From sequence record ON210137.1: a DNA stretch of 64,000 bases; one strand, 5' to 3'. This stretch comes from Escherichia phage EC150. The position numbers were made by a program, and so were the translations under genes. The notes beneath the pieces were generated by a model. That model was not told where the DNA came from. It worked only from the letters and a program-made list of their open reading frames with translations, and did no database searches. This document shows, piece by piece, positions 45,095 to 60,038 of the stretch (position 1 is the stretch's first letter; each line of letters opens with the position of its first letter).

Positions 45095-46072
45095 TTAAAA
45101 ATACTCCATATCGGTAATATCACGGAAGCATTTATACAAGGCAGAGCGCGGCACGTCAACGATGCCAAAGTTGAAGAATTTATATGTCAGATACTTGTTG
45201 CGATAATTCTCGCGATTCTCCCAAAGCATTTTTCTCTCTGCCATAGGCATTGAACCAGCGGATACGCGGAAAGGAATCATTTCACCTTTCTCATCAACAT
45301 ATTTTGGATTGACAACCACAAATGATCCAAGGTATCCTTTTGCAACTAAGCCTTCAGCCTCTTTCGAACGCTTAGTGCGACCCAACTCATCAATGAATGC
45401 TTCGTTGTTATTCTCCATCATCTCAACGAAGTCTATGATCAGACCTTCTTCATCGGTCCACGGCTTGTCCTTCCACACATCACGTGACTTTGGCGTCGCG
45501 CGGCCATGCTTGTATTTGCCCGTCCAAGACTTGCCATACAAGCCTTCATAGCCAAGCTGGTCTGCTTCGATTTGCATCGCCGCGTACTGTTCCATATTTT
45601 CGATGTTTCGATATTCGAGAGCGCGAAGGAATGGGCGTCGACCATGGTTGAGGAGGTGCTGATTGACTTCAGCAACTCTAGCGCGATAGTTTGCATAACG
45701 CTTTTCAAAAGGCAAATCAGGGTCGCTGAAGTCATCAAACACCCACCATGTAAAGTTAGTGATTGCATCAGTGTTCATGCATGCAGTATAGGCCTGTTGC
45801 ATGACGTTCTTGTCGTTCGGATTACCGTCAATTAGCTCTCCATCAAGTCCGTGAATCAATTCACCCAAGAATAGGAACTCTTTTTTGATTTGAATATTGC
45901 GCAGCGCCATGCCGGACGTGCCCATTGGCAAGTTGTCATACGCCATCGCGCGTATGCCATCGACCTTGAAGGATAATCCGCAAGGCAGCGGCACATCTTC
46001 GCCGCGCTCGATGATTTGTTTACGCTGACAGCCTTTCATTGGTTTTAATGCTTTGATTTCTCCTGCCATCAC
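45095..46072 (-). CDS. ATP-dependent DNA ligase
   Basis: 325 aa. Adenylation motif I at ..LSFKVDGIRA.. (KxDG). Size matches minimal phage ligases. Confidence 0.8.
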   Translation of the reverse strand: MMAGEIKALKPMKGCQRKQIIERGEDVPLPCGLSFKVDGIRAMAYDNLPMGTSGMALRNIQIKKEFLFLGELIHGLDGELIDGNPNDKNVMQQAYTACMNTDAITNFTWWVFDDFSDPDLPFEKRYANYRARVAEVNQHLLNHGRRPFLRALEYRNIENMEQYAAMQIEADQLGYEGLYGKSWTGKYKHGRATPKSRDVWKDKPWTDEEGLIIDFVEMMENNNEAFIDELGRTKRSKEAEGLVAKGYLGSFVVVNPKYVDEKGEMIPFRVSAGSMPMAERKMLWENRENYRNKYLTYKFFNFGIVDVPRSALYKCFRDITDMEYF

Positions 46073-46662
46073 TCAAACTCCTTATTCATCACTTGTTCCA
46101 GCGCATAGGCATAAGCCTGATCAGTCGATTTGATAAACGTTCCGTTGTACATCACACCTTTACGGTCCTTGATGTCTTCATAGGCGGCTTGAGCGCAATC
46201 AGACAGTCGAAGTCCATAATCATGTGCTACGCCGGAAAGATAATCGACTGCGCCCATGATGGTGACATCAATATCCATACTTTGATTTTTAGCAATGGCG
46301 TCACCAAGCCGTCCAAGAGTCTTTGCCAAGCGAAGGATAAACGAGTGAGGGTGAGCGCCTTTGTCAGCGCAACCGCCGCCGTTGATGTCTTCGATTTTTG
46401 CACCGTTTTGCGCGGCAAGAATAGTTAACACAACAAGGCAATCGCCGATGTCATCCTTGATTGCGGATTGTAAATCACAGATGGCCTGCTCTGTATATCC
46501 GATTTCAGGGTCAAAGAACACAAGGTCATGTAATTGATCAACGTGGTCGGTCAACTCCCCAAACTCGCTAATAAGCTTCGGGTATTGGTCCTTAAGGTCG
46601 CAGCCTTGGATGATGTTACGTTCAGAAGCCCACTGGCGAATGTTTGCATAAATCTGGTTCAT
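46069..46662 (-). CDS. MazG-like nucleotide pyrophosphohydrolase
   Basis: 197 aa. ..LISEFGELTD.. and ..IKDDIGDCLVVLTILA.. match the MazG ExxE / DxxD helices. The C-terminal ..YEDIKDRKG.. also fits. Confidence 0.65.
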   Translation of the reverse strand: MNQIYANIRQWASERNIIQGCDLKDQYPKLISEFGELTDHVDQLHDLVFFDPEIGYTEQAICDLQSAIKDDIGDCLVVLTILAAQNGAKIEDINGGGCADKGAHPHSFILRLAKTLGRLGDAIAKNQSMDIDVTIMGAVDYLSGVAHDYGLRLSDCAQAAYEDIKDRKGVMYNGTFIKSTDQAYAYALEQVMNKEFE

Positions 46663-47234: not shown

Positions 47235-48095
47235 TTAAAACTCTTCTGCGTCGGTCGGAGTTTCATTGACAGGACCAGCGGCACCGCTTGCTTCTTCCTG
47301 CTTGCTGCGGTCAATGTTAACGTTGCCGCCAACTACGTCGTTGTGGAATGCTTTGGCGACTTCGTACAAACCTTTGTCCTGCACCAGACCTTCCAGCTCA
47401 AACTTCAGAACTGACCATGTGTTGCCGTCTTTGGACTGGGATGCAGTACCCATGCGAACGATGTTCATAAAGGTCGGCGGCGTTTTCAGACCCTGCGGAG
47501 TCTGAACTTTCTTCTGCTGCAGAGCGGTCATCAGCATGCGAGACGGCTTGATCATGGAAGAAGTCAGAGACAGCATTGCGCTACCAAATTCACCAGTTTC
47601 TTCGTTCAACAGAATCACAAAGTGGTTGCGTGTATCTGCGTAGTAAGGCGATTTCTTCTCGTGCACCTTGCCGTTTTCGTCCGGCACGAATACCTTACCG
47701 TTGATCTCAACAGCGCGGCCTGCCGCGACTTCTGCATCAACGTGCTCTTTGGTGAATTCACCTTTAAAGCCTTTATCGTCGGACTCGCGACCGCCCCAAA
47801 GGATGAAGGTGCGTTTGAATGCGCAAGGGATGATCTGCACGCCTTTCTTACCGTCATACAACTCACCAGTAACGGTGTTGTAAAGCATTCCGGCTTTTGC
47901 GCCAGGAACGTGTTTTGGATCATCTTCGTCGACCATAGGAGACATCTTCTGCAGGACGACGATAAAAGGAATGGCATACGCATCGGCATCGGCACCTTCA
48001 AAACCAGCGCCAAAATCGGTCATGTCGACAAAATCAGCCATAGCGGACATCTGGGTGTTTTTCACTGCAACTTCGGTAGTTTCTTTCTTAGACAT
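47235..48095 (-). CDS. putative ssDNA-binding protein
   Basis: 286 aa. Strong codon bias. The acidic C-terminal tail ends ...TPTDAEEF, as in T7 gp2.5-type SSBs. Lies in the replication module. Assignment is tentative. Confidence 0.45.
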   Translation of the reverse strand: MSKKETTEVAVKNTQMSAMADFVDMTDFGAGFEGADADAYAIPFIVVLQKMSPMVDEDDPKHVPGAKAGMLYNTVTGELYDGKKGVQIIPCAFKRTFILWGGRESDDKGFKGEFTKEHVDAEVAAGRAVEINGKVFVPDENGKVHEKKSPYYADTRNHFVILLNEETGEFGSAMLSLTSSMIKPSRMLMTALQQKKVQTPQGLKTPPTFMNIVRMGTASQSKDGNTWSVLKFELEGLVQDKGLYEVAKAFHNDVVGGNVNIDRSKQEEASGAAGPVNETPTDAEEF

Positions 48096-48154
48096 TTGAT
48101 ATTTTCCTATAGTATCAAGTTTCGTGGCAACCTGATTTCAAGATAAAGGTTAAA

Positions 48155-48712
48155 TTACTTTTTGCTTTTAGGCAAGGTTATTTTAGCTTCTTTGTATTCA
48201 AAAACGCTAATATCTTCACTAACTGGATTGCCTGCTTCCAGCTGTTCTTTTACAAATGACTTCAGTGTAGCAGAATGAACGCCTTGTTTCAAGGTGGCTT
48301 CAACACCATCTTCACGCAGCGCGGCAACAATCTCTTGCGCCTGTTCGATTTCTTCGCGACCAAACTCAGCCGTGACGCTGGACTTGATCAGGCCGCCGTA
48401 ACCGTTGTTTACAAGCCAATCGAAAACTTTTAATTCGTTTTCTTTCTTGATTGAAGCGTTCACCTTGGACTCGACCTTGATTTTGGTCTTGTCCTCAAGC
48501 TTGATTTCGGACACGCCAAGCTCATCCATAACGCCAGGAAGCAAAACAGTTTTGATTTCACTGATACGCTGCTTTTGCATATCAGCTTCATCTTCAAGCT
48601 CTGTCAAAGCTTCTTGGCGTTCTGCCAGTTCAGATACTAAGCGCGCAAGGCGCTCTTGAATGCTCTCAGGAGCAACCTGCGGCAAATCATCTTCCCAATT
48701 AATATTGCTCAT
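48155..48712 (-). CDS. hypothetical coiled-coil protein (replication module)
   Basis: 185-aa acidic ORF whose start overlaps the upstream stop. Confidence 0.5.
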   Translation of the reverse strand: MSNINWEDDLPQVAPESIQERLARLVSELAERQEALTELEDEADMQKQRISEIKTVLLPGVMDELGVSEIKLEDKTKIKVESKVNASIKKENELKVFDWLVNNGYGGLIKSSVTAEFGREEIEQAQEIVAALREDGVEATLKQGVHSATLKSFVKEQLEAGNPVSEDISVFEYKEAKITLPKSKK

Positions 48713-50570: not shown

Positions 50571-50989
50571 GACAATTCCTCTAAATACTTGATGATGTGG
50601 TGAATAGTTCCCTTCACGATTATCTCACGTTGAACGTCTGCAATATTATAACGCTTTAATTCAATCGAAGGGTGGACTAAATAAAACATCTTCTCAGAAT
50701 CGACTTTAAGCAAAACAAATGATGGGTATTTCCAATCATTCCACGAAGAAAGAAAGCTGCACTGACCTTTCTCAAATGCATTTCTGAAAGGTGCAGTGGT
50801 GGCCCTTGCAGGCCACGATTCAAAGAACTTCATTTCAAGCCAAAAGCCGCGCCCTTTCCGGTTGGTGCCGATTACATCCGGCACACCATCACCCGTCATG
50901 GATTCGATTCTTTGAAGCTTCAATGCTGATTCTGAATGCTTCTTCAGGGGCACAAAAATGTATTTTTGTTCACGGTTGTTTGTTGCCAT
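50567..50989 (-). CDS. VRR-NUC-like nuclease
   Basis: In-frame ATG 50989 (MATNNREQ...) overlapping the polymerase stop by 20 nt. ..GVPDVIG....GRGFWLEMKF.. fits the D..(E)xK core of the VRR-NUC/PD-(D/E)xK fold. Confidence 0.55.
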   Translation of the reverse strand: MATNNREQKYIFVPLKKHSESALKLQRIESMTGDGVPDVIGTNRKGRGFWLEMKFFESWPARATTAPFRNAFEKGQCSFLSSWNDWKYPSFVLLKVDSEKMFYLVHPSIELKRYNIADVQREIIVKGTIHHIIKYLEELS

Positions 50990-53873
50990 CTGGATACACC
51001 TGTTTGATAACGTCGACGATGAACATATCAATGCCTTCAAGCTTGCGGCCTTTCATCAGGAAGAATGCACCGTTCCCGACGTACTCTGCAATGTACTTCC
51101 CGTATTTCTGGAACTTCTCTGGGCGAATCCTGAAGCGCATTGGCGAGTCGGTCGAATCGTCCTTGCACATAAGGTCGATGAATTGAGTTTCAAGCTTGTT
51201 TCCATACTGGTCAAATTCTGCGTAGCGGCCATCGGCCTGAAGACCCTTTTTAAGCTTGCCGTGCTTTGTATAAATGCCGCGCTCAAGACGTTTACGGATG
51301 CGTGTTGCTTCGTTCTCGTCTGCCAGCACTTTCTTGGTCAGCTTGCCGATTACTATTGCACGCTCATCATCGCCTACTTCCTTCATCTGGCGTATTGAAG
51401 CGCCGGAAGTGACGCCAATCAGATATGGGTCATTATATGCCCAGCCGAACTTGGTGTGCATCTCTGTAAGGTCGCCGTATTTAACTTCAGCATTGGCCAA
51501 TGCATCCTTCTGCTTTTGCGTTAAGGTTCCGGCTTCACGTGCTTCGATGTACTTCATCGCCTTCACCATTCCGTACCCTTTAGCGTTCATGATGCCGCCG
51601 ATTAGCTTTCCGTTAGCGATGGTCCAGTTCATTGAAGAGTGATCAGGGTCGATTGGCACATAATCCACGCCTTCCTTCGCAAGTTCACGTAATATCGCAA
51701 TCGTCTGGTCTTCGTCCTTAGCAGCGCGTAAGCAAGCAGCGGCAAATTCCAACGGGTAGTGTCGTTTAAGCCACAAGGTCCAGTAGGTTACGACCGCGTA
51801 TGACACGGAGTGTGACTTGTTAAAGCCCCATGACCCGAACGTCGCCATCGCCTGCCAAAGCTTTCTTGCATCCGCTTCCGGTACGCCGTTATTTATTGCG
51901 CCTGCAACGAAGTCTTCGCCAAGCTTGTTAAAGTATTCCTCGCCCTTACGACCTGACATCGCCTTACGCACGGCTGATGTTTTCGCCCAGTCGAATGAAC
52001 CAATCTCTTTAACCACGGCCATGATTTGCTCTTGGTAAAGAAACACGCCGTAAGTCTCTTTTAAGTACGGCTCAAGCTGCGGCACGTCGTACTCAATCGG
52101 CGCACGCCCTGCCGCGCGTTCAATGTATTTCTGGGCCATACCGGATGACAACGGGCCAGGTCGACCAAGTGCTGTCAGGTTATCGATTTTGTTGAAGTTG
52201 TCAACGTGCACAAAGTTGGTTACTGAGCGCACAGCGTCACCTTCAAACTGAAAGATTCCTGACATCTTGTTTTCGTTAAGGATATCAAGGACGCTTTGGT
52301 CATCAAGCTTGATTCCGTATAGCGTTTCAGCATCTATCACGCCAGTATCAGAAATGATTCCGAGGGTGCGAAGACCCAACGCATCAAGCTTCAAAAGGTT
52401 AAGGTATTCGCTGTCAGGCTTATCAATTTGCGCAATCCCTTCCGCCGTTACCGTACAGTAATCAGAGATTGGGTCATTACACACGATGATTCCCGCTGCG
52501 TGAACGCCAGTGTGGGAAGGGTGAATCTCAAGGTCACCCATGCATCGCGCGGCGTCAGGATATTTCGCCACGAACTCTTGGCCCGTGGTCGTTGTTGCAA
52601 AAGTATCCTCCAGGCCGTGACCATAACGGGCGTCACCGGATGAGTATTCAAGCAATGCGTTTTTAATGTTGGCCGTTTCGTGATATCCAATGTTGAACTT
52701 CTTACCAACCTGAGCCATTACTGAGTTGGCCTTAAGCGTGTTGATGTTGCCAAGCTTTGCAACGTTCATTTCGCCATATTTTTCTTTAAGGTAATCAAAC
52801 ACCATATAACGTTTGGTGTCCTCAAAGTCAATATCAATATCAGGGAGGTCGGCGCGGCTTACGTCGATGAATCGGGCAAATAGCAGCTTATACGGGATTG
52901 GGTCAACTTCCGTGATGCCGAGGCAATAACAAACCAGTGAACCAGCCGATGAGCCGCGTGCAGGACCGACAAGCATTTTTGTTTTTGCGAATCGTACAAG
53001 GTCCGCTACTACCAGAAAGTATGAGTCGAAATCTTTCAACTGAATCTGGTGAATTTCTTCGTTGAAGCGGTCCTCATATTCCTGAGTCCATTCTTTGATG
53101 TGACCTGCTTTGAGACGGTACTCCATCCCCTCACGCGCAAGCTTTACCATATCACCAGCAAGGTGAATAATCGGTGCCTTGCGTAATTTCAGGTCAAGTC
53201 CGACTATGCCGTTTGCTATGTCAACAGCATTGGCCGTTGCCTGATTCAGCTCATCTTCCGTCAAGATGCCTTTAAGCTGTTTGCGCAAGTCTTCCGCGTC
53301 AACGATGCAGTGCGGCTTGACCGTGTCGCGCACTTCCCAAGCATAAGCAAAGTCAACGTGCTCAGGTGAAGGCATGTGGTTGTATCCGGTTAAAACCAGC
53401 GGCCTTCCGTTGCTGCGGTGAGCCAACACCTGGCGCTTAGCCAAAAGGAACGATGATGGGTTGACGTCTATATAATCGTAGTCCTCTGGCCGCAGCAGCT
53501 CAACGGCACCGCCACAGAATTTAACGACGCCATCAAGCGCACCGAACTCTTCACGGGTAAGCCCACCGCGCTGCGTTGAAAGTGTTGTAGCGTTGTAAAA
53601 AGATTTTAAGTCAAGGGACAGTATCCAAGCCTTCGGTTTGAATCCCTTTTTCGGGTCCGCATCAGGGTCGATGATTGGAATCTCCATCCCAAACATAGGC
53701 TTAATATCATTTTTCTGGCATTCCTTTTCCCAGCGGACGTGACCCCATGTGTTGTTATCAACTAATGCCGCGACTTCGCAGCCCAACTCTTTGAGCCGTG
53801 CTATAATTTCAGGATGCCGTCCATAAACTTCTTTGAACGTGTAACCGCTGCGAACTCTCAATTGTGGAAACAT
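50970..53873 (-). CDS. dnaE: DNA polymerase III alpha-type (DnaE-like) replicative polymerase
   Basis: 967 aa. ..GPARGSSAGSLVCYCLGITEVDP.., ..DIDIDF.., and finger/thumb regions colinear with bacterial DnaE. The N-terminal PHP motif is degenerate (QLRVRSGYT instead of HLRVHSDYS). Confidence 0.9.
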   Translation of the reverse strand: MFPQLRVRSGYTFKEVYGRHPEIIARLKELGCEVAALVDNNTWGHVRWEKECQKNDIKPMFGMEIPIIDPDADPKKGFKPKAWILSLDLKSFYNATTLSTQRGGLTREEFGALDGVVKFCGGAVELLRPEDYDYIDVNPSSFLLAKRQVLAHRSNGRPLVLTGYNHMPSPEHVDFAYAWEVRDTVKPHCIVDAEDLRKQLKGILTEDELNQATANAVDIANGIVGLDLKLRKAPIIHLAGDMVKLAREGMEYRLKAGHIKEWTQEYEDRFNEEIHQIQLKDFDSYFLVVADLVRFAKTKMLVGPARGSSAGSLVCYCLGITEVDPIPYKLLFARFIDVSRADLPDIDIDFEDTKRYMVFDYLKEKYGEMNVAKLGNINTLKANSVMAQVGKKFNIGYHETANIKNALLEYSSGDARYGHGLEDTFATTTTGQEFVAKYPDAARCMGDLEIHPSHTGVHAAGIIVCNDPISDYCTVTAEGIAQIDKPDSEYLNLLKLDALGLRTLGIISDTGVIDAETLYGIKLDDQSVLDILNENKMSGIFQFEGDAVRSVTNFVHVDNFNKIDNLTALGRPGPLSSGMAQKYIERAAGRAPIEYDVPQLEPYLKETYGVFLYQEQIMAVVKEIGSFDWAKTSAVRKAMSGRKGEEYFNKLGEDFVAGAINNGVPEADARKLWQAMATFGSWGFNKSHSVSYAVVTYWTLWLKRHYPLEFAAACLRAAKDEDQTIAILRELAKEGVDYVPIDPDHSSMNWTIANGKLIGGIMNAKGYGMVKAMKYIEAREAGTLTQKQKDALANAEVKYGDLTEMHTKFGWAYNDPYLIGVTSGASIRQMKEVGDDERAIVIGKLTKKVLADENEATRIRKRLERGIYTKHGKLKKGLQADGRYAEFDQYGNKLETQFIDLMCKDDSTDSPMRFRIRPEKFQKYGKYIAEYVGNGAFFLMKGRKLEGIDMFIVDVIKQVYPDGNKQP

Positions 53874-54415
53874 TATTTACTCCAGATGTCATATACGCCA
53901 ATTTGTTGGCAGACTTTGTGCAGTAATATTACGTCGTCTAATGCACGGTGCTTCTGTTCATATTTTCCGAAATATAATTCATACAGCTCTTGAAGCTTAA
54001 CTCTTCGGCCAAAAATAGGCAAGGTTTGCTCAACTGTACATATGTTTATTTCTGGAAAATTAACATCATCAAGCGTAAGTCCTTCGCGCTGTAGTGCATA
54101 ATCAAGAATGTTTTTATCGAACGCATGGTTGTGCGCGATAGTTGCATCAGTCTTCTTGAAGATTTCTTTTAGCTGCGGGACGAAATTGATGAACGGTGGA
54201 TTGCACTCAAGGTCTTCATTAGTTAATCCGGTAATCTTTGTGATGATTTCTTCAATCACAATTTCAGGATTAATTATGAATTCAAACGTTTCAAGAATCT
54301 CTTTGCCGTCTGTCAACAGACCTGCAAATTCAATAGGACGCGGCTGCATCCCAAGCGGCGCTTTCGGGTGCACGGTCAATCCGGTTGTTTCGAAGTCATA
54401 AGGGAGAAATAACAC
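53873..54415 (-). CDS. DnaQ/epsilon-like 3'-5' exonuclease
   Basis: 180 aa. ExoI YDFETTGL, ExoII IAHNHAFDKNIL, ExoIII HRALDDV. Its stop overlaps the polymerase ATG (TAATG). Confidence 0.8.
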   Translation of the reverse strand: MLFLPYDFETTGLTVHPKAPLGMQPRPIEFAGLLTDGKEILETFEFIINPEIVIEEIITKITGLTNEDLECNPPFINFVPQLKEIFKKTDATIAHNHAFDKNILDYALQREGLTLDDVNFPEINICTVEQTLPIFGRRVKLQELYELYFGKYEQKHRALDDVILLHKVCQQIGVYDIWSK

Positions 54416-54469
54416 ATTAGCCTCCTACAAAAAGGCCGCCCATTAGGACGGCCACAGATTCACGATTCG

Positions 54470-55021
54470 TTATACGGTGTACGGAGTACCGTCTTGATTC
54501 AAGCGCACGATAAACTTAAGGTCGACGCCAATAATATCACGCGTGTCAAAGATCACATAGTTGTAGCGACGTTGACCAGCAATGTTAGGATTGGTGTGGG
54601 AGTCGGTGATGACTTCCTGCGCAACCTGAATATGTTCGTTCTTAAAGAACTCACGCCATTCGGCAAGTTCTGCGGCAGTCACGTGCATGCCAAGGTGGCT
54701 AACCTGATTATCGTGCGCATCGATGTATTCAATGTTTTCGTTAATCCAGTTGCAGCCCTTTGTGTAGTCAAGGATTTCAAGCTCAAGAGGCTTACCAGCG
54801 CTGCCATCAGTTCCGTTTCCAGCTTGATAGTTGAAGCGTAAATCAGCTTCGTTGGTGCAATCGCCGCGCTGGCCTTTAAAGTCATCAGATTCAAATACGC
54901 GACCAGTAGCAACAACGTGATCATGGAACCATTCTGTCAGGCCGATTTTAGCCAGGAAATTCTGTGCGCGCTGAGCACCTGGGATTGACAGGGCGATTTG
55001 TTCAATTTTAAAATGTGGCAT
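54470..55021 (-). CDS. VOC/glyoxalase-fold protein candidate
   Basis: 183 aa. ..KIEQIALSIP.. and ..VSHLGMHV.. resemble paired beta-alpha-beta-beta-beta VOC modules. Weak by-eye call. Confidence 0.4.
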   Translation of the reverse strand: MPHFKIEQIALSIPGAQRAQNFLAKIGLTEWFHDHVVATGRVFESDDFKGQRGDCTNEADLRFNYQAGNGTDGSAGKPLELEILDYTKGCNWINENIEYIDAHDNQVSHLGMHVTAAELAEWREFFKNEHIQVAQEVITDSHTNPNIAGQRRYNYVIFDTRDIIGVDLKFIVRLNQDGTPYTV

Positions 55022-55117
55022 TTTGTTTCCTTAATTAAATATTATTGATTAATTACTGTGTTATCTTCGTCCTGTTTCTTTTCAGGAGCGGGTGTGACAA
55101 CTTCAAATGTTCGTGAT

Positions 55118-55801
55118 TTATTTCCCAAATGGAATATCAGTACCAGACATAAAGCGCCATGCGCCCGTAATTAAGATATGGCGAATGAAGTCAGCAATTA
55201 CTTGCGGCTCAGTCTCCAATCCATTCATCAGTGCCTTTTTCTGGTATTCAGCAGCATACTCAGGAGTCCAGCCGCGAGTCGCGCAAACAGCATCTTCAAT
55301 CTGTTTGGACATGCCAGTACCACGTAGCTTGTTAGGACTAATAGAGAATACCGTGATGCCGTATTTAGGCGTAAGCTCGTGAGCCATCTGCTTGCTAATC
55401 ATAAGCGCAGCAGCCTTGGATGCATTATAACACAAGCTGGACGTCATAGGAATGTGCGCAGCGTTAGAAACGATATTGATCACAAAACCTTTGTTGTCGA
55501 TAAGACTTTTCAGCGCGGCTTGAGTCGTGTTAACGAAAGAGAATGCGTTGGTGTGCATAACGCGATTGAACTCTTCGTAGTTAACATCTTCGAACCAGTT
55601 GTTGGAGTTGACGCCAGCGCAGTTGATCAAGCCTTCTACATCATATGGGCTTAAAATTTCTTTCATCTGTTTAGCGTCGCGGACGTCATATCCGTATGCT
55701 GAATCGATGCCAAGCACGTTATGACCGTAAGCGCCAAGGGTGTCAAAAATAGATTTACCAAGACCGGAATTGGAACCTGTTACAACAATTACTTTTTTCA
55801 T
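55118..55801 (-). CDS. classical short-chain dehydrogenase/reductase (SDR)
   Basis: 227 aa. Cofactor motif VVTGSNSGLGKS (TGxxxGxG), NCAG, catalytic YNASK (YxxxK). Confidence 0.85.
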   Translation of the reverse strand: MKKVIVVTGSNSGLGKSIFDTLGAYGHNVLGIDSAYGYDVRDAKQMKEILSPYDVEGLINCAGVNSNNWFEDVNYEEFNRVMHTNAFSFVNTTQAALKSLIDNKGFVINIVSNAAHIPMTSSLCYNASKAAALMISKQMAHELTPKYGITVFSISPNKLRGTGMSKQIEDAVCATRGWTPEYAAEYQKKALMNGLETEPQVIADFIRHILITGAWRFMSGTDIPFGK

Positions 55802-55866
55802 TTATTTATCCTTTTTGGACTTCGTTTCGATGAGATAAATATAACTCATCGAAACGCACAAGTAAA

Positions 55867-56739
55867 CTATTTATTGAAATTAATATTATGGGTGTTGACA
55901 AGACGTTCACACATGGCGCTGTAAACACCATCGTCGTGTATTGAGTCTTCGTGCTTCAGGCCGCTGATTGCGAAGCGTGTAAGCTTGACAATCTTAAGCT
56001 CGAACAGATGCCACATGTGGTAGTCTTCCGGCGTTTTCAACGTTACGCCATTAGGGAAAAGCACCTGCATAACCTGGCCTACCATCACAGCGTTATCGCC
56101 ATAGACAGCGTTGCGCTCACGAAAGGTTGCTGCCATTGCATCAAGAATATCGGCGGCAGTTGCCGGAGATTGTTCAACTTCCACAGCCTTAGTCTCTTCT
56201 TGCCCTGTTGCGCTTGGATCAATTGCTAATTGTTGCACCACTTCACCTGCCTTGCAAAGATTAAATGTAAAAGCGATTTTATTTTGAGCAACGGAATTAT
56301 AATACAATGCTTCATCTTGCATCCGCGCGAGTACGTCTTGTCGGTCGTCGAATACGTTGATGATTCGATAATCGCCGTGGCGCAATGCGTGCGATAGCCA
56401 TGCAGATTTCATAATAGTTGATGGACGTTTGTCGCCATAGTCTCTCATCTTGATTGTAAATTCATCAAAAGGAAAAACATTGTCCAGACGTTCAAAAGTC
56501 ACTTGTCTGTATTTTTCTGGCCTTGCAGTCCAATATTCAACCGCCTCACCGCGAAGAGATGCCGACTCTACTGCTGATGCAATGTGAGGATAGAACTGAT
56601 CATAACCAATACCGCTATGATAGTCATCATAGTCTGACAACGGACCTGCCACCTTGATGCGGTCTAAGCGCCAACGGTCATCAAACAGCGTTCCGTCAAG
56701 GTCGAATACGTTTAAGATTTCGCTGTTTTTAATGCTCAT
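55867..56739 (-). CDS. HAD-type phosphatase fused to a C-terminal helical domain (DUF6378-like)
   Basis: 290 aa. N-terminal FDLDGTLFD (HAD motif I) and ..NVFDDRQD.. (motif IV-like). The C-terminal ..RERNAVYGDN....LFELKIVKLTRF.....HEDSIHDDGVYSAM.. recalls a common phage domain. Confidence 0.55.
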   Translation of the reverse strand: MSIKNSEILNVFDLDGTLFDDRWRLDRIKVAGPLSDYDDYHSGIGYDQFYPHIASAVESASLRGEAVEYWTARPEKYRQVTFERLDNVFPFDEFTIKMRDYGDKRPSTIMKSAWLSHALRHGDYRIINVFDDRQDVLARMQDEALYYNSVAQNKIAFTFNLCKAGEVVQQLAIDPSATGQEETKAVEVEQSPATAADILDAMAATFRERNAVYGDNAVMVGQVMQVLFPNGVTLKTPEDYHMWHLFELKIVKLTRFAISGLKHEDSIHDDGVYSAMCERLVNTHNINFNK

Positions 56740-57539
56740 CCTTTTGATACTCCATCTTTAGCAACTGGATTGTTGGTGATTGGCATCGCACTCCAAAACT
56801 GGATGCGCAACTCTTCTTGCTGTGACGTGGTATCCATCCAATCACGATACCAAGGGCAATGGGCTTTGCCATGACGAGGAAACGCGCATTTACCCATACC
56901 GATGCATTGCGGCTGTAATAATGGATTTGCCCACGGGTGCACCTTGAGGACTTCCGCAACCATTGCGCGGAATACTTCTTGATACTCGCCTTGAGTGCGC
57001 GTGCACAAGCGGTTTGACGCCATCTGCTGCAGCGTGCGCAAGTTGAACTTTGCCATGATATGCGTTTGCATATTAGAAGGCAACACGGCACGTGCATCTT
57101 GAATCTCTGCGCCAGCCGCGCGAAGCTCTTGATACAAAGCATCGATAGTCGCCATCGCATCATCCCACTTCTCTGCCAGTTCAGCGGCCTTCTCGTCATG
57201 ACGAGTCCATCCCTTTGGATCATCCTCTGGGTAAGTGAATTTAGCAGGACGAATCGCATCAAATGCAGACGACTCCTGAGCGCGGCTGGTGCGTTCTTGA
57301 TATGCGCCTGTGCGTGTGCGTACCATCTGATGGGTCATGTTCTTTGATACATCTGTGATATCAAAGATATAGTCCACAAAGTCAAAAGGCGACTTGATTG
57401 TATCAAGCATGTAGCGCCAATGCTCTTGCTTCTCTGATTCCGTCATCTCAGAGACAGGCTTACCAGTCATGCGCGTGTTCTTTGTTTCCAGCAAAAGGTC
57501 AAGTGCATCTTGGGTGTATCGAATTAATTCAACTTTCAT
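56736..57539 (-). CDS. thyX: flavin-dependent thymidylate synthase (ThyX family)
   Basis: 267 aa. ..HQMVRTRTGAYQERTSRAQ.. aligns with the ThyX RHR(x7-8)S motif (RHR replaced by RTR). ..ARAVLPSNMQT....NLRTL......R.C.RTQGEYQEVF.. matches the second conserved block. Confidence 0.8.
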   Translation of the reverse strand: MKVELIRYTQDALDLLLETKNTRMTGKPVSEMTESEKQEHWRYMLDTIKSPFDFVDYIFDITDVSKNMTHQMVRTRTGAYQERTSRAQESSAFDAIRPAKFTYPEDDPKGWTRHDEKAAELAEKWDDAMATIDALYQELRAAGAEIQDARAVLPSNMQTHIMAKFNLRTLQQMASNRLCTRTQGEYQEVFRAMVAEVLKVHPWANPLLQPQCIGMGKCAFPRHGKAHCPWYRDWMDTTSQQEELRIQFWSAMPITNNPVAKDGVSKG

Positions 57540-57552
57540 TTTAATTATCCTA

Positions 57553-57999
57553 TTAACGGTAATTCACTAGTTGCTGATCACCAGAGAAGGTGCAATGATA
57601 AACGAATTGTGCGTTATAAAGCAACTGAAAACTTTTCTTTGGTTCATTATTAGAACTCATCGATGTAAAGATTTCTGCACCAGAACGGTTTTCACCAATC
57701 AGATTAATAAAGCCGCCAGTTGAACGAGGCTGGACGAAAGTGAAACGTTGCATCCACGGAGTACGGTTGGCACCTTTCCCTGTGAATCCCTGAATCTGAA
57801 TATTCAGACCTTCTTGCTCGTTCACACCGATGTAAGTGGTAATCTTCGCACCAGTCGTTGCTGCGGTCTTACCGTCCATCGCTTCGCAATCGTAAACAGC
57901 GATTGAATCGGAAGTACGGATGGCAGCTTCAGTCGCTTCCATATACATGGTGCCGAGAATAGCAGTTGCGGCAAGCGCGATTCCAGTGATTCGTTTCAT
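57553..57999 (-). CDS. secreted protein of unknown function
   Basis: 148 aa. Signal peptide MKRITGIALAATAILGTMYMEATEA. Confidence 0.55.
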   Translation of the reverse strand: MKRITGIALAATAILGTMYMEATEAAIRTSDSIAVYDCEAMDGKTAATTGAKITTYIGVNEQEGLNIQIQGFTGKGANRTPWMQRFTFVQPRSTGGFINLIGENRSGAEIFTSMSSNNEPKKSFQLLYNAQFVYHCTFSGDQQLVNYR

Positions 58000-58064
58000 T
58001 TCCGTTTCCTCTATGAGTTCTGCTTCAATGATTAAAGTATACGCCCATTGAAGCAGAAAGCAAA

Positions 58065-59060
58065 TTATTTATTAGCAATATAAGCAAATTTTTGATAGTT
58101 ATTTGCTTTGATGAGTTTTTCAACTTCAACAAGGTCATGAGCGACGTCATCAAGCAAAATGTTGCGCCAGGTAGCAAATCGACCGACACTAAACACGTTC
58201 AAATCCATGGTCAGCTGCAGGAGTAGGGCGTGTCGCAAGTCTTTCGGAATGTCGACAATCTTGCCATATTTCTGGTCGACCTTTTCAACTTCTTCAAGAG
58301 CAATGTCACTCCATGAGAGGCCAAAAGCTGTCAACACTTCGTCGACTTCTGCGCGCAGCTTGATGTCACGGTAACGAGTGATGCCGCCAGCGGCTTCAAC
58401 TGCAGCTTCACTCACGCTGACCAAAGGAATTGTTTCAATGATCAGTGTGTCGCCAGTGATTGATGCGCGGTAAGTTCTGACGGAGTAGTCAGGGAAGTAA
58501 ATTGTTTGATACAAATCACACTTACGTTTAATCTTAAAGCGGTAAACGCGAATGTTTGCTTTATCAAATGAGAAATCAAGCTTTTGATCAATCCCAGCCA
58601 GCTTCATCATGACTGGCAGCGGCGACGTGTTGATGATTGGCGTCTCGCTATAGCCGCAAAGAGTATCAACCGGAGTATTAAAGAATATGCGGTCACCCAG
58701 TTTGTCGACAAGCTGATCATAAAAGTCATCAGGCGCAATATAACGTGTTGCAGTCTTAAGCTTCATGATTGAACGGCTGCCAAACTGATTGGTGACCTTC
58801 ATGGAATACATATTGGCAAGGTTGATTGGGCAATGGTCGTGGTAGTAGTTGCCGCGAAAATACACAGCCTTGTCAACTGTCACGGCCTTGAAAGGGATTC
58901 CGGTAATACGGCTTACTTCTTCGCCGCGAAAGCGTAGAAGCGCCTTGTGCTGTTGCGCTCGTTCCCCTGCTTCGTACACAATAGAGTTCGGGAAGTGACA
59001 CGCTGTGATAAGTCCTGCCAGTCCGCCGCCGATAATCATTACAGGTTGTTTCATGTTCAT
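58065..59060 (-). CDS. FAD/NAD(P)-binding oxidoreductase-fold protein (UDP-galactopyranose-mutase/amine-oxidase-like)
   Basis: 331 aa. N-terminal dinucleotide-binding VMIIGGGLAGL (GxGxxG). C-terminal ..SVGRFATWRN..LDD.. resembles the Glf/PPOX-type closing motif. Confidence 0.65.
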   Translation of the reverse strand: MNMKQPVMIIGGGLAGLITACHFPNSIVYEAGERAQQHKALLRFRGEEVSRITGIPFKAVTVDKAVYFRGNYYHDHCPINLANMYSMKVTNQFGSRSIMKLKTATRYIAPDDFYDQLVDKLGDRIFFNTPVDTLCGYSETPIINTSPLPVMMKLAGIDQKLDFSFDKANIRVYRFKIKRKCDLYQTIYFPDYSVRTYRASITGDTLIIETIPLVSVSEAAVEAAGGITRYRDIKLRAEVDEVLTAFGLSWSDIALEEVEKVDQKYGKIVDIPKDLRHALLLQLTMDLNVFSVGRFATWRNILLDDVAHDLVEVEKLIKANNYQKFAYIANK

Positions 59061-59137: not shown

Positions 59138-59166
59138 GAAAAAAGACCCACAACAAGTGTGGGTCA
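59138..59166 (-). terminator. rho-independent terminator
   Basis: Stem GACCCACA/TGTGGGTC (59145-59165), followed on the minus strand by TTTTTTCAT. Confidence 0.6.
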
Positions 59167-59192: not shown

Positions 59193-60038
59193 TTATTCCG
59201 CTTGATCACCGTCTTCGGCATCTTCGTTGGATTCAACATCGACAAACTCGATGTGACCCATCTCTTCCAGCTTGCTCAGGTAGGAGCGAACTGAAGCGCC
59301 AAACAGTTGATCTTTAACTTTTTCGCCCAGCTCATCGATAGACTGTGCCACGCCAACTTCGCCTTCTTTGATCGCCGCCAGAACGCGTCCACGGGTGGAA
59401 TGCTCTTGCGGCTGACTCAGGCCATTGCCAGTGTAGATGAAGTGAGTAGCTTTTGCACGACGCTGACCATTGGCCTTTTTGGCAGCCTTACGTTCTGCGA
59501 TGGCTTTGCGACGTTCTTCAGCTTCTTGCTTACGCTGTTCTTTCTGCTGTTCTGCAGCTTCTTTCGCCGCAATCTTAGCAGCTTCACGCTCTGCCTTGCG
59601 TTTCGCTTTGGCTTCTTCTTTGGCCTTCTCTTTTTCGGCCTTCGCTGCAGCACGGGCTTGATCACGCTCTGCTTTCTTAGCAGCAGCTTGTTCAGCTTTC
59701 AGGCGCTTGGCTTCTTCTTTAGCCTTTGCCTTTTCGATTTCTTTCGCTGCTTTAGCGGCTTCACGCTCTGCTTTCTTAGCAGCAGCCTTTTCTGCACGCT
59801 CTTTGGCCTTCTTGGCTGCTTCTTCAGCACGCTTCTGAGCCTTCTCATCAGCAGCCTGCTTGCGTTTCAGGGCAGCTTCTTCACGCTTGGCTTGTTTTTC
59901 CTGCTCACGCTTCTGGCGTTTTTCTTCGGCTTCTTTCTTTTTAGCCAGACGTTTTTCTTCAGCCACGCGACGACGTTCTGCTGCAGCTGCTTGTTTTTCT
60001 TCTTTAGATAATACTTTGATTGCTTCGGCCATGTTCAC
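59193..60038 (-). CDS. K/A/E-rich low-complexity protein with C-terminal winged-helix-like domain
   Basis: 281 aa. About 190 aa are almost pure Lys/Ala/Glu/Arg/Gln (AEEKRLAKKKEAEEKRQKRE...). The C-terminal ~85 aa are globular (..RGRVLAAIKEGEVGVAQSIDELGEKV...VRSYLSKLEEMGHIEF) with an acidic tail. Confidence 0.7.
   Translation of the reverse strand: MNMAEAIKVLSKEEKQAAAAERRRVAEEKRLAKKKEAEEKRQKREQEKQAKREEAALKRKQAADEKAQKRAEEAAKKAKERAEKAAAKKAEREAAKAAKEIEKAKAKEEAKRLKAEQAAAKKAERDQARAAAKAEKEKAKEEAKAKRKAEREAAKIAAKEAAEQQKEQRKQEAEERRKAIAERKAAKKANGQRRAKATHFIYTGNGLSQPQEHSTRGRVLAAIKEGEVGVAQSIDELGEKVKDQLFGASVRSYLSKLEEMGHIEFVDVESNEDAEDGDQAE

What the first reader, a model, noticed from the sequence alone, without database searches (positions are those of the whole stretch)
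54470..59060. Six-gene enzyme island (VOC-like, SDR, HAD-fusion, ThyX, secreted protein, flavoprotein) between the replicase and helicase genes
Directly downstream of the DnaQ-like exonuclease lie, co-oriented: a VOC/glyoxalase-like protein (54470..55021), a classical SDR (55118..55801), a HAD phosphatase fused to a helical phage domain (55867..56739), ThyX (56736..57539), a signal-peptide protein (57553..57999), and a GxGxxG flavoprotein with a Glf/amine-oxidase-like C-terminus (58065..59060). A MazG-like pyrophosphohydrolase lies 8 kb away in the same orientation. ThyX alone would mean simple dTMP supply. Classical ~230-aa SDRs of the FolM/pteridine-reductase type are known to accompany thyX as alternative folate reductases. 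However, the added flavoprotein, VOC-fold enzyme and nucleotide phosphatase or pyrophosphatase activities resemble the enzyme sets phages use to deplete canonical dNTPs and build modified pyrimidines. I cannot name the pathway, so it may be an undescribed nucleotide or base-modification or cofactor-salvage route.
Basis: inference. Interest (0 to 1): 0.65.

Follow-up and report, generated by a model that had tools for sequence, protein, structure and literature searches.

The report
Candidate phage thymine-hypermodification gene cluster
Next to the DNA replicase of this E. coli phage sits a widely conserved, phage-only set of enzyme genes (an atypical ThyX, a sugar-mutase-like flavoprotein, a phosphatase fusion, and a dehydrogenase/VOC pair); it is the best available candidate for making the sugar-bearing modified thymine recently found in related phages, whose biosynthetic genes are unknown.

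Summary
The six ORFs exist exactly as described, all on the minus strand. The window is a Wifcevirus (96% identical to E. coli phages AV128/WFH). Structure prediction confirms the two unannotated enzymes: a VOC fold and a flavoprotein closest to UDP-galactopyranose mutase. The "helical domain" fused to the HAD phosphatase is DUF6378.

The island has three layers:
- A core, flavoprotein > ThyX > HAD-DUF6378 > DnaQ > DnaE. It is present in 42-46 of 46 well-sampled viral loci and essentially absent from cellular genomes.
- An all-or-none SDR+VOC pair, in 34 of 46 loci.
- A Wifcevirus-only secreted ORFan.

The ThyX belongs to a subfamily that always lacks Tyr91 and His79.

A 2025 preprint showed that Pbunavirus relatives, which share the core, carry sugar-bearing hypermodified thymidine at TG, with no genes assigned. 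Wifceviruses resist restriction with no known mechanism. I find the same genomic signature in this window as in Pbunavirus 14-1: TG-containing palindromes are not avoided, while others are. Ten control phages lack the signature.

The island is the only non-replicative enzyme set detected in these genomes. The base-modification reading is therefore well supported circumstantially but unproven, and the FolM reading of the SDR is not supported.

The parts
58065..59060 (-). FAD6: 331-aa GxGxxG flavoprotein (phrog_4828), UDP-galactopyranose-mutase / protoporphyrinogen-oxidase-like fold. First gene of the conserved core.
57553..57999 (-). ORF5: 148-aa protein with an N-terminal signal-peptide-like segment. 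Wifcevirus-specific insertion, probably not part of the pathway.
   Evidence: No Pfam/PHROG/NCBIfam hit. tblastn finds only 28 Wifcevirus records. Present in 3/46 module loci. Hydropathy of residues 1-20.
56736..57539 (-). ThyX-like flavin-dependent enzyme of a distinct subfamily (RTRxxAYxxxTxRA instead of RHRxxSxxxxSxRY), with a C-terminal C-x5-C-x9-C extension.
   Evidence: Thy1 E 1.3e-30. TIGR02170 scores 83.1 bits, below the 87.9 cutoff. Alignment to T. maritima ThyX. Subfamily conservation.
56215..56739 (-). HAD phosphatase domain (PNKP-type; DxDGT motif FDLDGT) of the 290-aa fusion protein.
   Evidence: HAD_PNKP E 5.4e-8; phrog_4889 E 8e-122. Present in 42/46 loci.
55867..56214 (-). DUF6378 domain (C-terminal about 100 aa of the fusion). 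It is a stand-alone gene in some relatives.
   Evidence: 12/17 homologues hit PF19905, best E 1.3e-5. Present in 45/46 loci; stand-alone copies of about 100 aa.
55118..55801 (-). Classical short-chain dehydrogenase/reductase, 227 aa. One half of the optional SDR+VOC pair.
   Evidence: adh_short E 2.6e-31. Best PDB matches are FabG, about 1e-12. Co-occurs with VOC in 34 loci and is alone in none. Adjacent to VOC even in Microbacterium phage Sparcetus.
54470..55021 (-). VOC-superfamily protein, 183 aa, methylmalonyl-CoA-epimerase / glyoxalase-I-like fold.
59145..59165 (-). Terminator-like hairpin followed by a T-run, upstream of the island (after gene 59193-60038).
   Evidence: 8-bp stem, 5 GC, then TTTTTT.
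54434..54453 (-). Terminator-like hairpin followed by a T-run, after the VOC gene and before dnaQ.
   Evidence: 8-bp stem, 7 GC, then TTTTT. A terminator is annotated in the WFH record under the match.
50970..54415 (-). DnaQ-like exonuclease (53873-54415) and DnaE-type polymerase (50970-53873). Invariably linked downstream of the module.
   Evidence: RNase_T E 1e-21. Present in 45/46 loci.
46069..46662 (-). MazG-like pyrophosphohydrolase, same strand, 7.8 kb away. Also present in Pbunavirus 14-1 and next to DnaE in Gordonia phage Zany.
   Evidence: Weak Pfam MazG E 0.0098. Annotated in Bas98 and 14-1 and in Zany gp77.

Best explanation
The region is a replicase-linked nucleotide/DNA-modification module. 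I propose it makes the sugar-substituted thymidine (5-substituted deoxyuridine) that protects these phages' DNA at TG sites.

Shown:
- The genes, folds, synteny and phage-restricted distribution.
- The atypical ThyX active-site motif.
- The TG-specific palindrome signature in this window.
- From the literature, sugar-bearing hypermodified T at TG in Pbunavirus, which shares FAD6, ThyX and HAD-DUF6378.

Inferred roles:
- The ThyX-like enzyme installs or activates the carbon on C5 of dUMP through its flavin, via an exocyclic-methylene or flavin-N5 adduct.
- The UGM-like flavoprotein handles the sugar or performs the redox coupling.
- The HAD-DUF6378 protein removes a phosphate or pyrophosphate from a sugar-phosphate or nucleotide intermediate.
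- In the Wifcevirus/Serratia/Xanthomonas clade, the SDR and the epimerase-like VOC protein tailor the sugar by oxidation/reduction and epimerisation.
- The secreted ORF5 is an unrelated genus-specific insertion.

How TG specificity arises is unexplained.
For: 1. Pbunavirus F8 and 14-1 virion DNA carries novel thymidine derivatives of 362 and 390 u. They replace about 1/4 of T, in a TG motif. The authors describe them as a tetrose sugar-alcohol derivative and a cyclic aldopentose derivative, and assign no biosynthetic genes.
2. 14-1 and F8 carry FAD6, ThyX and HAD-DUF6378 in the same order next to DnaQ/DnaE.
3. [quoted passage not shown]
4. Hexamer palindromes depleted more than 2-fold: in the window, 0/16 of the TG/CA class against 13/38 of the others (Fisher p 0.006). 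In 14-1, 0/14 against 11/32. In seven unmodified coliphages, 2-7 of 13-16 TG-class sites are depleted.
5. GC-matched O/E, TG class vs non-TG: window 0.95/0.42, 14-1 0.99/0.60, 75 pooled module-bearing loci 0.90/0.63, controls 0.44/0.45.
6. Synteny in 46 loci with at least 6 kb sampled downstream: ThyX 46, DUF6378 45, HAD 42, DnaQ 45, DnaE 45, SDR and VOC together 34, one of the pair alone in 1.
7. FAD6 and this ThyX subfamily have the same distribution in GenBank phages: 358 against 356 records, same genera.
8. FAD6 is found in only 6 short MAG contigs among 185,579 species genomes, each with the same module.
9. In the ThyX subfamily, the nucleotide-binding residues Q75, R78, R80, R90, R147 and R174 are invariant. 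Y91 is V or A in 68/70 and never Tyr, and H79 is T, S or N in 69/70. Tyr91 is strictly conserved and critical in canonical ThyX, where Y91A is more than 100-fold slower.
10. I detected no other non-replicative enzyme domain in the Wifcevirus or Pbunavirus ORFs I scanned or in the relatives' annotation, apart from ligase and MazG in both and an annotated methyltransferase in 14-1 with no Pfam match.
11. The folds fit sugar chemistry: UGM-like, sugar-phosphate-type HAD, SDR, epimerase-like VOC.
Against: - No experiment links any of these genes to the modification, and the modification has not been measured in any Wifcevirus.
- The conserved arginines imply that ThyX acts on a free nucleotide. 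A TG-restricted modification implies a DNA-level or context-selective step, for which no enzyme is identified.
- Pbunaviruses make sugar adducts without SDR/VOC, so that pair is not required.
- The phages sharing the module also share the whole replication module, so the palindrome signature cannot be pinned on these genes rather than on other conserved unknown ORFs.
- Wifceviruses are also said to resist all tested RM systems. From my memory of the BASEL panel these include EcoRI and EcoRV, whose sites lack TG (12 and 8 sites in the window). TG protection alone would not explain that.
- F8 and 14-1, which carry different adducts, have 97% identical FAD6, while an unrelated gene (ORF70) is only 57% identical.
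- The ThyX may simply be a working thymidylate synthase.
Confidence: 0.45

Rival explanations
1. Ordinary nucleotide-supply module. The ThyX is a genuine thymidylate synthase feeding the phage DnaE replicase. FAD6 is a redox or one-carbon helper for it, for example re-reducing its flavin or generating methylene units as amine oxidases do. HAD-DUF6378 hydrolyses dNTP/dNMP, for example to supply dUMP. The TG modification is made by other, still unrecognised genes.
For: The Thy1 domain is clearly above the Pfam threshold, and all nucleotide-binding arginines are retained. About 3/4 of T in Pbunavirus DNA is canonical and must be supplied. The module is always glued to DnaQ/DnaE. A MazG-like enzyme is also present. 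Amine and L-amino-acid oxidases are among the FAD6 fold matches.
Against: Canonical ThyX needs no partner flavoprotein, yet FAD6 is never found without this ThyX and is absent from cells that have ThyX. The subfamily has lost Tyr91, which is strictly conserved and kinetically critical. The gene scores below the TIGR02170 equivalog cutoff. This reading leaves the SDR+VOC pair unexplained. No alternative enzyme genes for the modification were detected.
Confidence: 0.3
2. The SDR is a FolM/pteridine-reductase-type alternative folate reductase that accompanies ThyX, and the VOC protein is incidental.
For: SDR homologues also occur in Gordonia and Mycobacterium phages that encode ThyX-like genes near DnaE.
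Against: ThyX yields tetrahydrofolate, not dihydrofolate, so no reductase is needed (established knowledge). Best NCBIfam and PDB matches are glucose dehydrogenase, FabG and EntA types, all far below their cutoffs, with no FolM/PTR1 hit. The glycine motif TGSNSGLG lacks the basic residue, and an Asp follows beta-2, which suggests NAD rather than NADPH (read from the sequence; inference). The SDR is absent from all Pbunaviruses that have the same ThyX and is tied to the VOC gene instead.
Confidence: 0.07
3. The six genes are an assortment of unrelated auxiliary metabolic genes or morons that merely share a permissive insertion site between replication genes.
For: ORF5 is a genus-specific ORFan. 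In Bas98 two extra small ORFs sit between the VOC and SDR genes. Pbunaviruses have five small ORFs between FAD6 and ThyX. The site therefore tolerates insertions.
Against: The order FAD6 > ThyX > HAD-DUF6378 > (SDR > VOC) > DnaQ > DnaE is kept down to 29% FAD6 identity. Distantly related counterparts occur in the Actinobacteria phage Sparcetus: a probable FAD6 relative, HAD, SDR, VOC and DUF6378 in a row.
Confidence: 0.05

Closest known systems
Hypermodified thymidine of Pbunavirus F8 and 14-1 (Yee et al., bioRxiv 2025, doi 10.1101/2025.03.31.646159)
   Same: These are distant relatives of Wifcevirus with the same FAD6-ThyX-HAD/DUF6378-DnaQ-DnaE arrangement. The window shows the same TG-class palindrome signature as 14-1.
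   Different: The modification has not been measured in Wifcevirus. Pbunaviruses lack the SDR+VOC pair and ORF5. The preprint assigns no biosynthetic genes.
Thymidine hypermodification pathways of phages M6, ViI, SP10, PhiW-14 and PaMx11 (Lee et al. 2018; 2021, PMC8989533)
   Same: The outcome is a bulky C5 substituent on part of the thymidines that blocks restriction. The chemistry goes through an exocyclic-methylene pyrimidine intermediate, and a flavoprotein takes part in one branch.
   Different: Those pathways use a ThyA-family dUMP hydroxymethylase (or TET/JBP), the 5-hmdU DNA kinase and aGPT-Pplase amino-acid:DNA transferases. None of these is detected here (annotation). The appended groups are amino acids or polyamines, not sugars.
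Canonical flavin-dependent thymidylate synthase ThyX (T. maritima TM0449, PDB 1kq4)
   Same: Thy1 domain. Q75, R78, R80, R90, R147 and R174 are conserved.
   Different: H79 becomes T/S/N, Y91 becomes V/A, H59 becomes F and H178 becomes R throughout the subfamily. A C-terminal extension carrying C-x5-C-x9-C is found in half of the sequences. The gene scores below the TIGR02170 cutoff and is obligatorily paired with FAD6.
UDP-galactopyranose mutase (Glf/UGM; PDB 4dsg, 3hdq)
   Different: Only 17% identity and no Pfam GLF hit. FAD6 is 331 aa against 365-473 aa. Protoporphyrinogen and amine oxidases score nearly as well. UDP-binding residues were not examined. The family is phage-restricted.
Base J (JBP1/2 hydroxylase plus JGT glucosyltransferase) of kinetoplastids
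   Same: A sugar carried on the 5-methyl carbon of a subset of thymines in DNA, installed in a context-dependent way.
   Different: No Fe/2OG dioxygenase and no glycosyltransferase was detected in the ORFs scanned or in the relatives' annotation. If the analogy in outcome holds, the enzymes are entirely different.

Membership tests
ThyX / flavin-dependent thymidylate synthase (PF02511, TIGR02170) | Thy1 domain above the Pfam gathering score | tested here: met
   107.1 bits against a cutoff of 24.8.
ThyX / flavin-dependent thymidylate synthase (PF02511, TIGR02170) | Score above the NCBIfam equivalog cutoff, i.e. same function as characterised ThyX | tested here: not met
   83.1 bits against a cutoff of 87.9.
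ThyX / flavin-dependent thymidylate synthase (PF02511, TIGR02170) | ThyX motif RHRxxSxxxxSxRY, including the strictly conserved Ser88 and Tyr91 | tested here: not met
   The window has RTRTGAYQERTSRA. R78, R80 and R90 are kept, with H79T, S88T and Y91A. Across 70 subfamily sequences Y91 is V/A in 68 and never Tyr. The role of Tyr91 is described in PMC8316439.
ThyX / flavin-dependent thymidylate synthase (PF02511, TIGR02170) | Catalyses dUMP + CH2-THF + NADPH to dTMP | not testable with these tools
   Needs an enzyme assay or thyA complementation.
Classical SDR | TGxxxGxG cofactor motif, NNAG-like motif, and the catalytic Ser and YxxxK | tested here: met
   VTGSNSGLG, NCAG, S112 and Y125-NAS-K129 are read from the translation. 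adh_short E 2.6e-31.
FolM / pteridine reductase (PTR1) type SDR | Specific similarity to FolM/PTR1 and an NADPH-type cofactor site | tested here: not met
   The 25 best NCBIfam families shown (of 210 matched) and the 15 PDB hits are glucose dehydrogenase, FabG, EntA and similar, and none is FolM/PTR1. An Asp follows beta-2 and the Gly motif has no basic residue (sequence; inference).
HAD phosphatase, PNKP-type | HAD_PNKP domain with the DxDGT nucleophile motif and the downstream acidic DD motif | tested here: met
   33.5 bits against a cutoff of 27.6. FDLDGT at residues 12-17 and VFDDRQD are read from the translation.
DUF6378 (PF19905) | Match to the Pfam model | tested here: inconclusive
   The window's own domain gives no hit at E <= 0.1. 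However, 12 of 17 aligned homologues do (best E 1.3e-5), and they share 32-62% identity with it.
VOC (glyoxalase/bleomycin-resistance/dioxygenase) superfamily | Paired beta-alpha-beta-beta-beta modules forming the VOC fold | tested here: met
VOC (glyoxalase/bleomycin-resistance/dioxygenase) superfamily | Metal-binding His/Glu ligands at the canonical positions | not tested
   Invariant Q8, E80, E82, H109, H113 and H142 exist in the family, but they were not mapped onto the model.
UDP-galactopyranose mutase (Glf) | GLF domain and UDP-sugar-binding Arg/Tyr residues; FAD-binding Rossmann fold | tested here: inconclusive
Known thymidine-hypermodification cluster (5-HMUDK + aGPT-Pplase + dUMP hydroxymethylase or TET/JBP) | Presence of the P-loop 5-hmdU DNA kinase, aGPT-Pplase and a ThyA-type hydroxymethylase or TET/JBP | tested here: not met
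   None was found by Pfam or PHROG in the island or in neighbouring unknown ORFs. None is annotated in the complete genome of the close relative Bas98.

The most novel reading that the evidence does not exclude
The Tyr91-less ThyX subfamily, working with the UGM-like flavoprotein, does not methylate dUMP. Instead it alkylates C5 with an aldose or aldose phosphate in place of formaldehyde/CH2-THF, through a flavin-N5 carbinolamine/iminium adduct. UGM uses this chemistry on sugars, and ThyX can use it on free formaldehyde. C1 of the sugar would then become the 'methyl' carbon of thymine.

The masses fit exactly:
- dU + pentose - H2O + 2H = 362.13 (open-chain polyol, F8).
- dU + hexose - H2O = 390.13 (ring-closed, 14-1).

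The HAD domain would then remove the sugar phosphate, and SDR/VOC would re-tailor the chain in Wifcevirus. This would be a new class of C-glycityl/C-glycosyl DNA base and a new reaction for flavin-dependent 'thymidylate synthases'.
Probability: 0.12. Interest if true: 0.95.

Novelty: new variant of a known kind. Interest (0 to 1): 0.7.

Why it matters
Pbunaviruses are among the most used therapeutic Pseudomonas phages, and Wifceviruses are fast-replicating coliphages.

Their DNA hypermodification was recognised only in 2025, and it has no assigned genes. It determines sensitivity to restriction systems and to the newly described END nucleases.

This analysis names a small, conserved and experimentally tractable gene set as the prime candidate. 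It predicts that Wifcevirus, and roughly 2,000 related uncultivated phage proteins' worth of lineages, carry a TG-context thymine modification. It also points to possibly new flavin chemistry: a ThyX without its catalytic tyrosine, obligatorily paired with a sugar-mutase-like flavoprotein.

All of this can be tested with knockouts and LC-MS in existing model phages (F8, 14-1, BASEL Bas98-101).

Tried and rejected
- The afdb50 fold library was unavailable.
- The BFVD viral library returned only uncharacterised homologues of FAD6.
- I rejected the FolM/PTR1 reading of the SDR.
- I tested whether Gordonia phage Zany gp72 and gp74 are VOC and DUF6378 homologues. They are not (hhalign probability below 1%). 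Zany gp67 and Sparcetus gp55 are only tentative FAD6 relatives (probability 21% and 51%).
- I tested whether the residue at ThyX position 91 (A vs V), or the Cys motif, tracks the presence of SDR+VOC. There is no clear association.
- I compared F8 with 14-1, which carry different adducts, to see whether island genes differ. FAD6 is 97% identical, ThyX 94% and HAD 81%, against 96-99% for the replication genes. This is suggestive at best, and the most divergent gene is an unrelated ORF70 at 57%.
- I looked for other enzyme genes (glycosyltransferase, kinase, dioxygenase, methyltransferase) in Wifcevirus and Pbunavirus. None was recognisable in Wifcevirus; in 14-1 only an annotated methyltransferase (ORF12.1) with no Pfam match.
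- The sigma-70 promoter scan was no better than shuffled sequence.
- I could not derive a single motif that explains all the BASEL restriction phenotypes. EcoP1_I sensitivity fits TG-only protection, but the reported general RM resistance does not fully fit.

Full report
**Identity of the window and check of the observation**

The window is a member of the genus Wifcevirus, a group of E. coli/Shigella myoviruses of about 68 kb. The island region is 96.5% identical to phages AV128 and WFH, and 28 records cover at least 80% of it.

All six ORFs are present at exactly the coordinates given, all on the minus strand. The ThyX and HAD genes overlap by 4 nt. In the direction of transcription the order is: 59193-60038 (K/A/E-rich protein) | FAD6 | ORF5 | ThyX | HAD fusion | SDR | VOC | DnaQ | DnaE.

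Two of the strongest terminator-like hairpins in the region lie immediately before FAD6 (59145-59165) and immediately after the VOC gene (54434-54453). The six genes therefore look like one transcription unit. GC content is unremarkable.

**What each protein is**

- **SDR, HAD and ThyX.** Pfam recognises the SDR (E 2.6e-31), a PNKP-type HAD phosphatase on residues 11-142 of the 290-aa protein (E 5e-8), and ThyX (E 1.3e-30).
- **HAD C-terminus.** The C-terminal about 100 residues of the HAD protein are a DUF6378 domain: 12 of 17 homologues hit PF19905. In some relatives the domain is a separate gene of about 100 aa.
- **ORF5.** It has a signal-peptide-like N-terminus.

**The island is layered, not one unit**

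I fetched 80 viral contigs encoding FAD6 homologues and mapped the window's proteins onto them. In the 46 loci with at least 6 kb sampled downstream of FAD6:

| Gene | Loci with it |
|---|---|
| ThyX | 46 |
| DUF6378 | 45 |
| HAD | 42 |
| DnaQ | 45 |
| DnaE | 45 |
| SDR | 34 |
| VOC | 35 |
| SDR and VOC together | 34 |
| Only one of SDR/VOC | 1 |
| ORF5 | 3 (the Wifcevirus loci) |

The order and strand are always the same. tblastn confirms that ORF5 exists only in the 28 Wifcevirus records.

In GenBank phages the full-length ThyX subfamily and FAD6 have the same distribution: 356 against 358 records, with 292 Pseudomonas, 26 Escherichia and 9 Serratia in both. In the podovirus Cronobacter Ss1 the two genes overlap.

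FAD6 is essentially phage-restricted. A scan of one genome for each of 185,579 bacterial and archaeal species found six hits. All are on MAG contigs of 59 kb or less, and each has ThyX downstream. The four contigs that extend far enough also carry HAD, DnaQ and DnaE, even at 29-34% FAD6 identity.

The SDR+VOC pair is missing from Pbunavirus. It is adjacent in Serratia, Xanthomonas and Aeromonas phages. It is also adjacent in the Actinobacteria phage Sparcetus, where these genes lie in a row upstream of DnaE:
- a GxGxxG oxidoreductase (hhalign to the FAD6 profile: probability 51%, E 1.5e-4, sharing the YxxKVxG and GR(F/Y)xxW motifs);
- a HAD phosphatase;
- the SDR;
- the VOC protein;
- a DUF6378 protein.

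Gordonia phage Zany has an oxidoreductase, phosphatase, SDR, DnaE, MazG and a ThyX-like gene in one stretch.

**The ThyX is atypical**

I aligned 70 distinct module ThyX sequences to T. maritima ThyX.

| Position (T. maritima numbering) | Module subfamily |
|---|---|
| Q75, R78, R80, R90, R147, R174 (nucleotide binding and activation) | invariant |
| His79 | T/S/N in 69/70 |
| Tyr91 | V/A in 68/70, never Tyr |
| His59 | always Phe |
| His178 | Arg in 69/70 |

The window reads RTRTGAYQERTSRA where the ThyX motif is RHRxxSxxxxSxRY. It scores just below the NCBIfam equivalog cutoff, at 83.1 against 87.9 bits.

Bou-Nader et al. (PMC8316439) describe Tyr91 and Ser88 as strictly conserved and critical. 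Y91A slows consumption of the flavin carbinolamine more than 100-fold, and Tyr91 is proposed as the general acid. The same paper shows that ThyX can use a free aldehyde (formaldehyde) through a flavin-N5 carbinolamine.

About half of the subfamily, including the window, and the Gordonia ThyX-like protein carry a C-terminal C-x5-C-x9-C motif.

**Link to DNA modification**

The BASEL paper (PMC11990801) calls Wifceviruses distant relatives of Pbunavirus. [quoted passage not shown] The EcoP1_I site, AGACC, contains no TG.

Yee et al. (bioRxiv 2025, PMC12191111) found the following for Pbunavirus F8 and 14-1:
- F8 virion DNA resists the restriction enzymes tested whose sites contain TG.
- LC-MS of both phages shows new thymidine derivatives of 362 u (F8) and 390 u (14-1), replacing about a quarter of T.
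- They interpret these as a tetrose sugar-alcohol derivative and a cyclic aldopentose derivative.
- They stress that such phages lack the known modification genes.

14-1 and F8 carry FAD6, ThyX and HAD-DUF6378 in the same place. The ORFs I scanned and the annotation of Wifcevirus Bas98 and of 14-1 show no other non-replicative enzyme domain apart from ligase and MazG-like, plus an annotated methyltransferase in 14-1 (ORF12.1) that gave no Pfam match.

**An independent sequence test**

If T in TG is protected, restriction sites containing TG/CA should escape counter-selection. I compared observed and Markov-expected counts of the 64 hexamer palindromes.

Palindromes depleted more than 2-fold (among those with expected count at least 4):

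| Genome | TG/CA class | Other palindromes |
|---|---|---|
| Window | 0/16 | 13/38 (Fisher p 0.006) |
| Pbunavirus 14-1 | 0/14 | 11/32 (Fisher p 0.02) |
| T7, lambda, three Chaseviridae, a Kuravirus, a Drexlerviridae | 2-7 of 13-16 | 5-15 of 29-40 |
| Three cytosine-modified T-even phages | almost none | almost none |

Observed/expected restricted to palindromes with four G/C, to remove the composition confound:

| Set | TG class | Non-TG |
|---|---|---|
| Window | 0.95 | 0.42 |
| 14-1 | 0.99 | 0.60 |
| 75 non-redundant module-bearing viral loci pooled (1.04 Mb) | 0.90 | 0.63 |
| Unmodified controls | 0.44 | 0.45 |

Among ten dinucleotide classes, TG/CA gives the highest ratio in the pooled module loci (1.41), against 0.96 in controls.

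The window therefore carries the footprint expected of TG-context protection. That footprint travels with the module across many uncultivated phages.

**Mechanism: what is shown and what is inferred**

Shown:
- the folds, the synteny and the phage restriction;
- the altered ThyX site;
- the TG footprint;
- in relatives, the modified nucleosides (from the literature).

Inferred: that this module makes the adduct. The enzyme set suits sugar and nucleotide chemistry. It combines two flavoproteins whose characterised relatives both use reduced-flavin N5 as a covalent catalyst, a sugar- or nucleotide-phosphate phosphatase, a dehydrogenase, and an epimerase-like VOC protein.

The reported masses do not distinguish O-linked from C-linked structures:
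- 362.13 equals 5-hmdU + tetritol - H2O, and also dU + pentose - H2O + 2H.
- 390.13 equals 5-hmdU + pentose - H2O, and also dU + hexose - H2O.

The C-linked reading would correspond to ThyX-type chemistry with an aldose in place of formaldehyde. Replacement of the bulky Tyr91 by Ala or Val would fit that idea. I rate this speculative version at about 0.12.

**Weaknesses**

- No experiment ties these genes to the adduct.
- The retained arginines imply a free-nucleotide substrate, whereas TG specificity implies a DNA-level or context-selective step, for which I found no enzyme.
- Pbunaviruses do without SDR/VOC.
- All module-bearing phages also share the rest of the replication module.
- Reported resistance to RM systems whose sites lack TG is not explained. 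I recall EcoRI and EcoRV being in the BASEL panel, but they are not named in the text I read. The window has 12 and 8 such sites.
- F8 and 14-1, with different adducts, differ little in FAD6 (97% identity) and moderately in ThyX (94%) and HAD (81%). An unrelated ORF70 is only 57% identical.

**Verdict**

The base-modification interpretation is partly supported and considerably sharpened. The FolM idea is not supported.

This is not a member of the known thymidine-hypermodification systems (5-HMUDK/aGPT-Pplase). It is best described as a new variant of that kind of system. I put about 0.45 on the module being the biosynthetic locus, and about 0.3 on it being an elaborate but ordinary dTMP/nucleotide-supply module.

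Noticed in passing
window 56736-56940 (ThyX residues about 205-267): The ThyX has a C-terminal extension with three cysteines in a C-x5-C-x9-C pattern (C212, C218, C228). It is present in 36 of 70 distinct module ThyX sequences, and the same spacing occurs in the Gordonia phage Zany ThyX-like protein (VCYLEGSCPFNASFDRKC). It may be a metal or redox site. Canonical ThyX lacks it.
   Followed up: partly
window 59193-60038 (minus strand): A 281-aa protein has a long Lys/Ala/Glu-rich low-complexity N-terminus and a small C-terminal domain (phrog_4765; 'TolA-like' in one annotation). It sits directly upstream of FAD6 in all Wifcevirus- and Pbunavirus-like myovirus loci but not in the podovirus-like ones. 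It may be a DNA-binding or histone-like protein.
   Followed up: partly
whole window: GATC is strongly under-represented (104 observed against 278 expected; O/E 0.38). CCGG and CTAG have O/E 0.56. Several GC-rich hexamer sites are absent altogether despite 17-18 expected: CCGCGG and TCCGGA.
   Followed up: partly
window 55022-55117 vs L001 12643-13028 (Bas98): The 96-nt gap between the VOC and SDR genes is a variable spot. In Bas98 it holds two extra small ORFs of 71 and 55 aa. Pbunaviruses similarly hold five small ORFs between FAD6 and ThyX.
   Followed up: no
L004 2931-4235 vs L094 3031-4227 (Pbunavirus 14-1 and F8, ORF70): This gene of unknown function, with CxxC-type motifs, is only 57% identical between F8 and 14-1, although its neighbours are 99% identical. 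It has no counterpart at the corresponding position of the window. It could relate to the different adducts or to anti-defence.
   Followed up: partly
L005 3234-3782 (Microbacterium phage Sparcetus gp54): The gene overlapping the start of the FAD6-like oxidoreductase gives a weak hit to the T4 endonuclease V-type pyrimidine-dimer DNA glycosylase family (PF03013, E 0.0016, below the cutoff). It could be a base-flipping DNA component of the module in actinophages.
   Followed up: no
window 47235-48712 (minus strand): Two conserved unknown proteins between the MazG/spanin genes and the SNF2-type helicase match Pam3 gp34-like (PF23977, E 4e-86) and Pam3 gp33-like DUF7307 (E 3e-37). Both are also present in Pbunavirus 14-1. 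Their function is unknown.
   Followed up: no
L005 7311-10808 (Sparcetus): The DnaE-like polymerase is annotated as two CDS (gp61 and gp63) separated by a small ORF, which suggests a split or interrupted polymerase gene.
   Followed up: no
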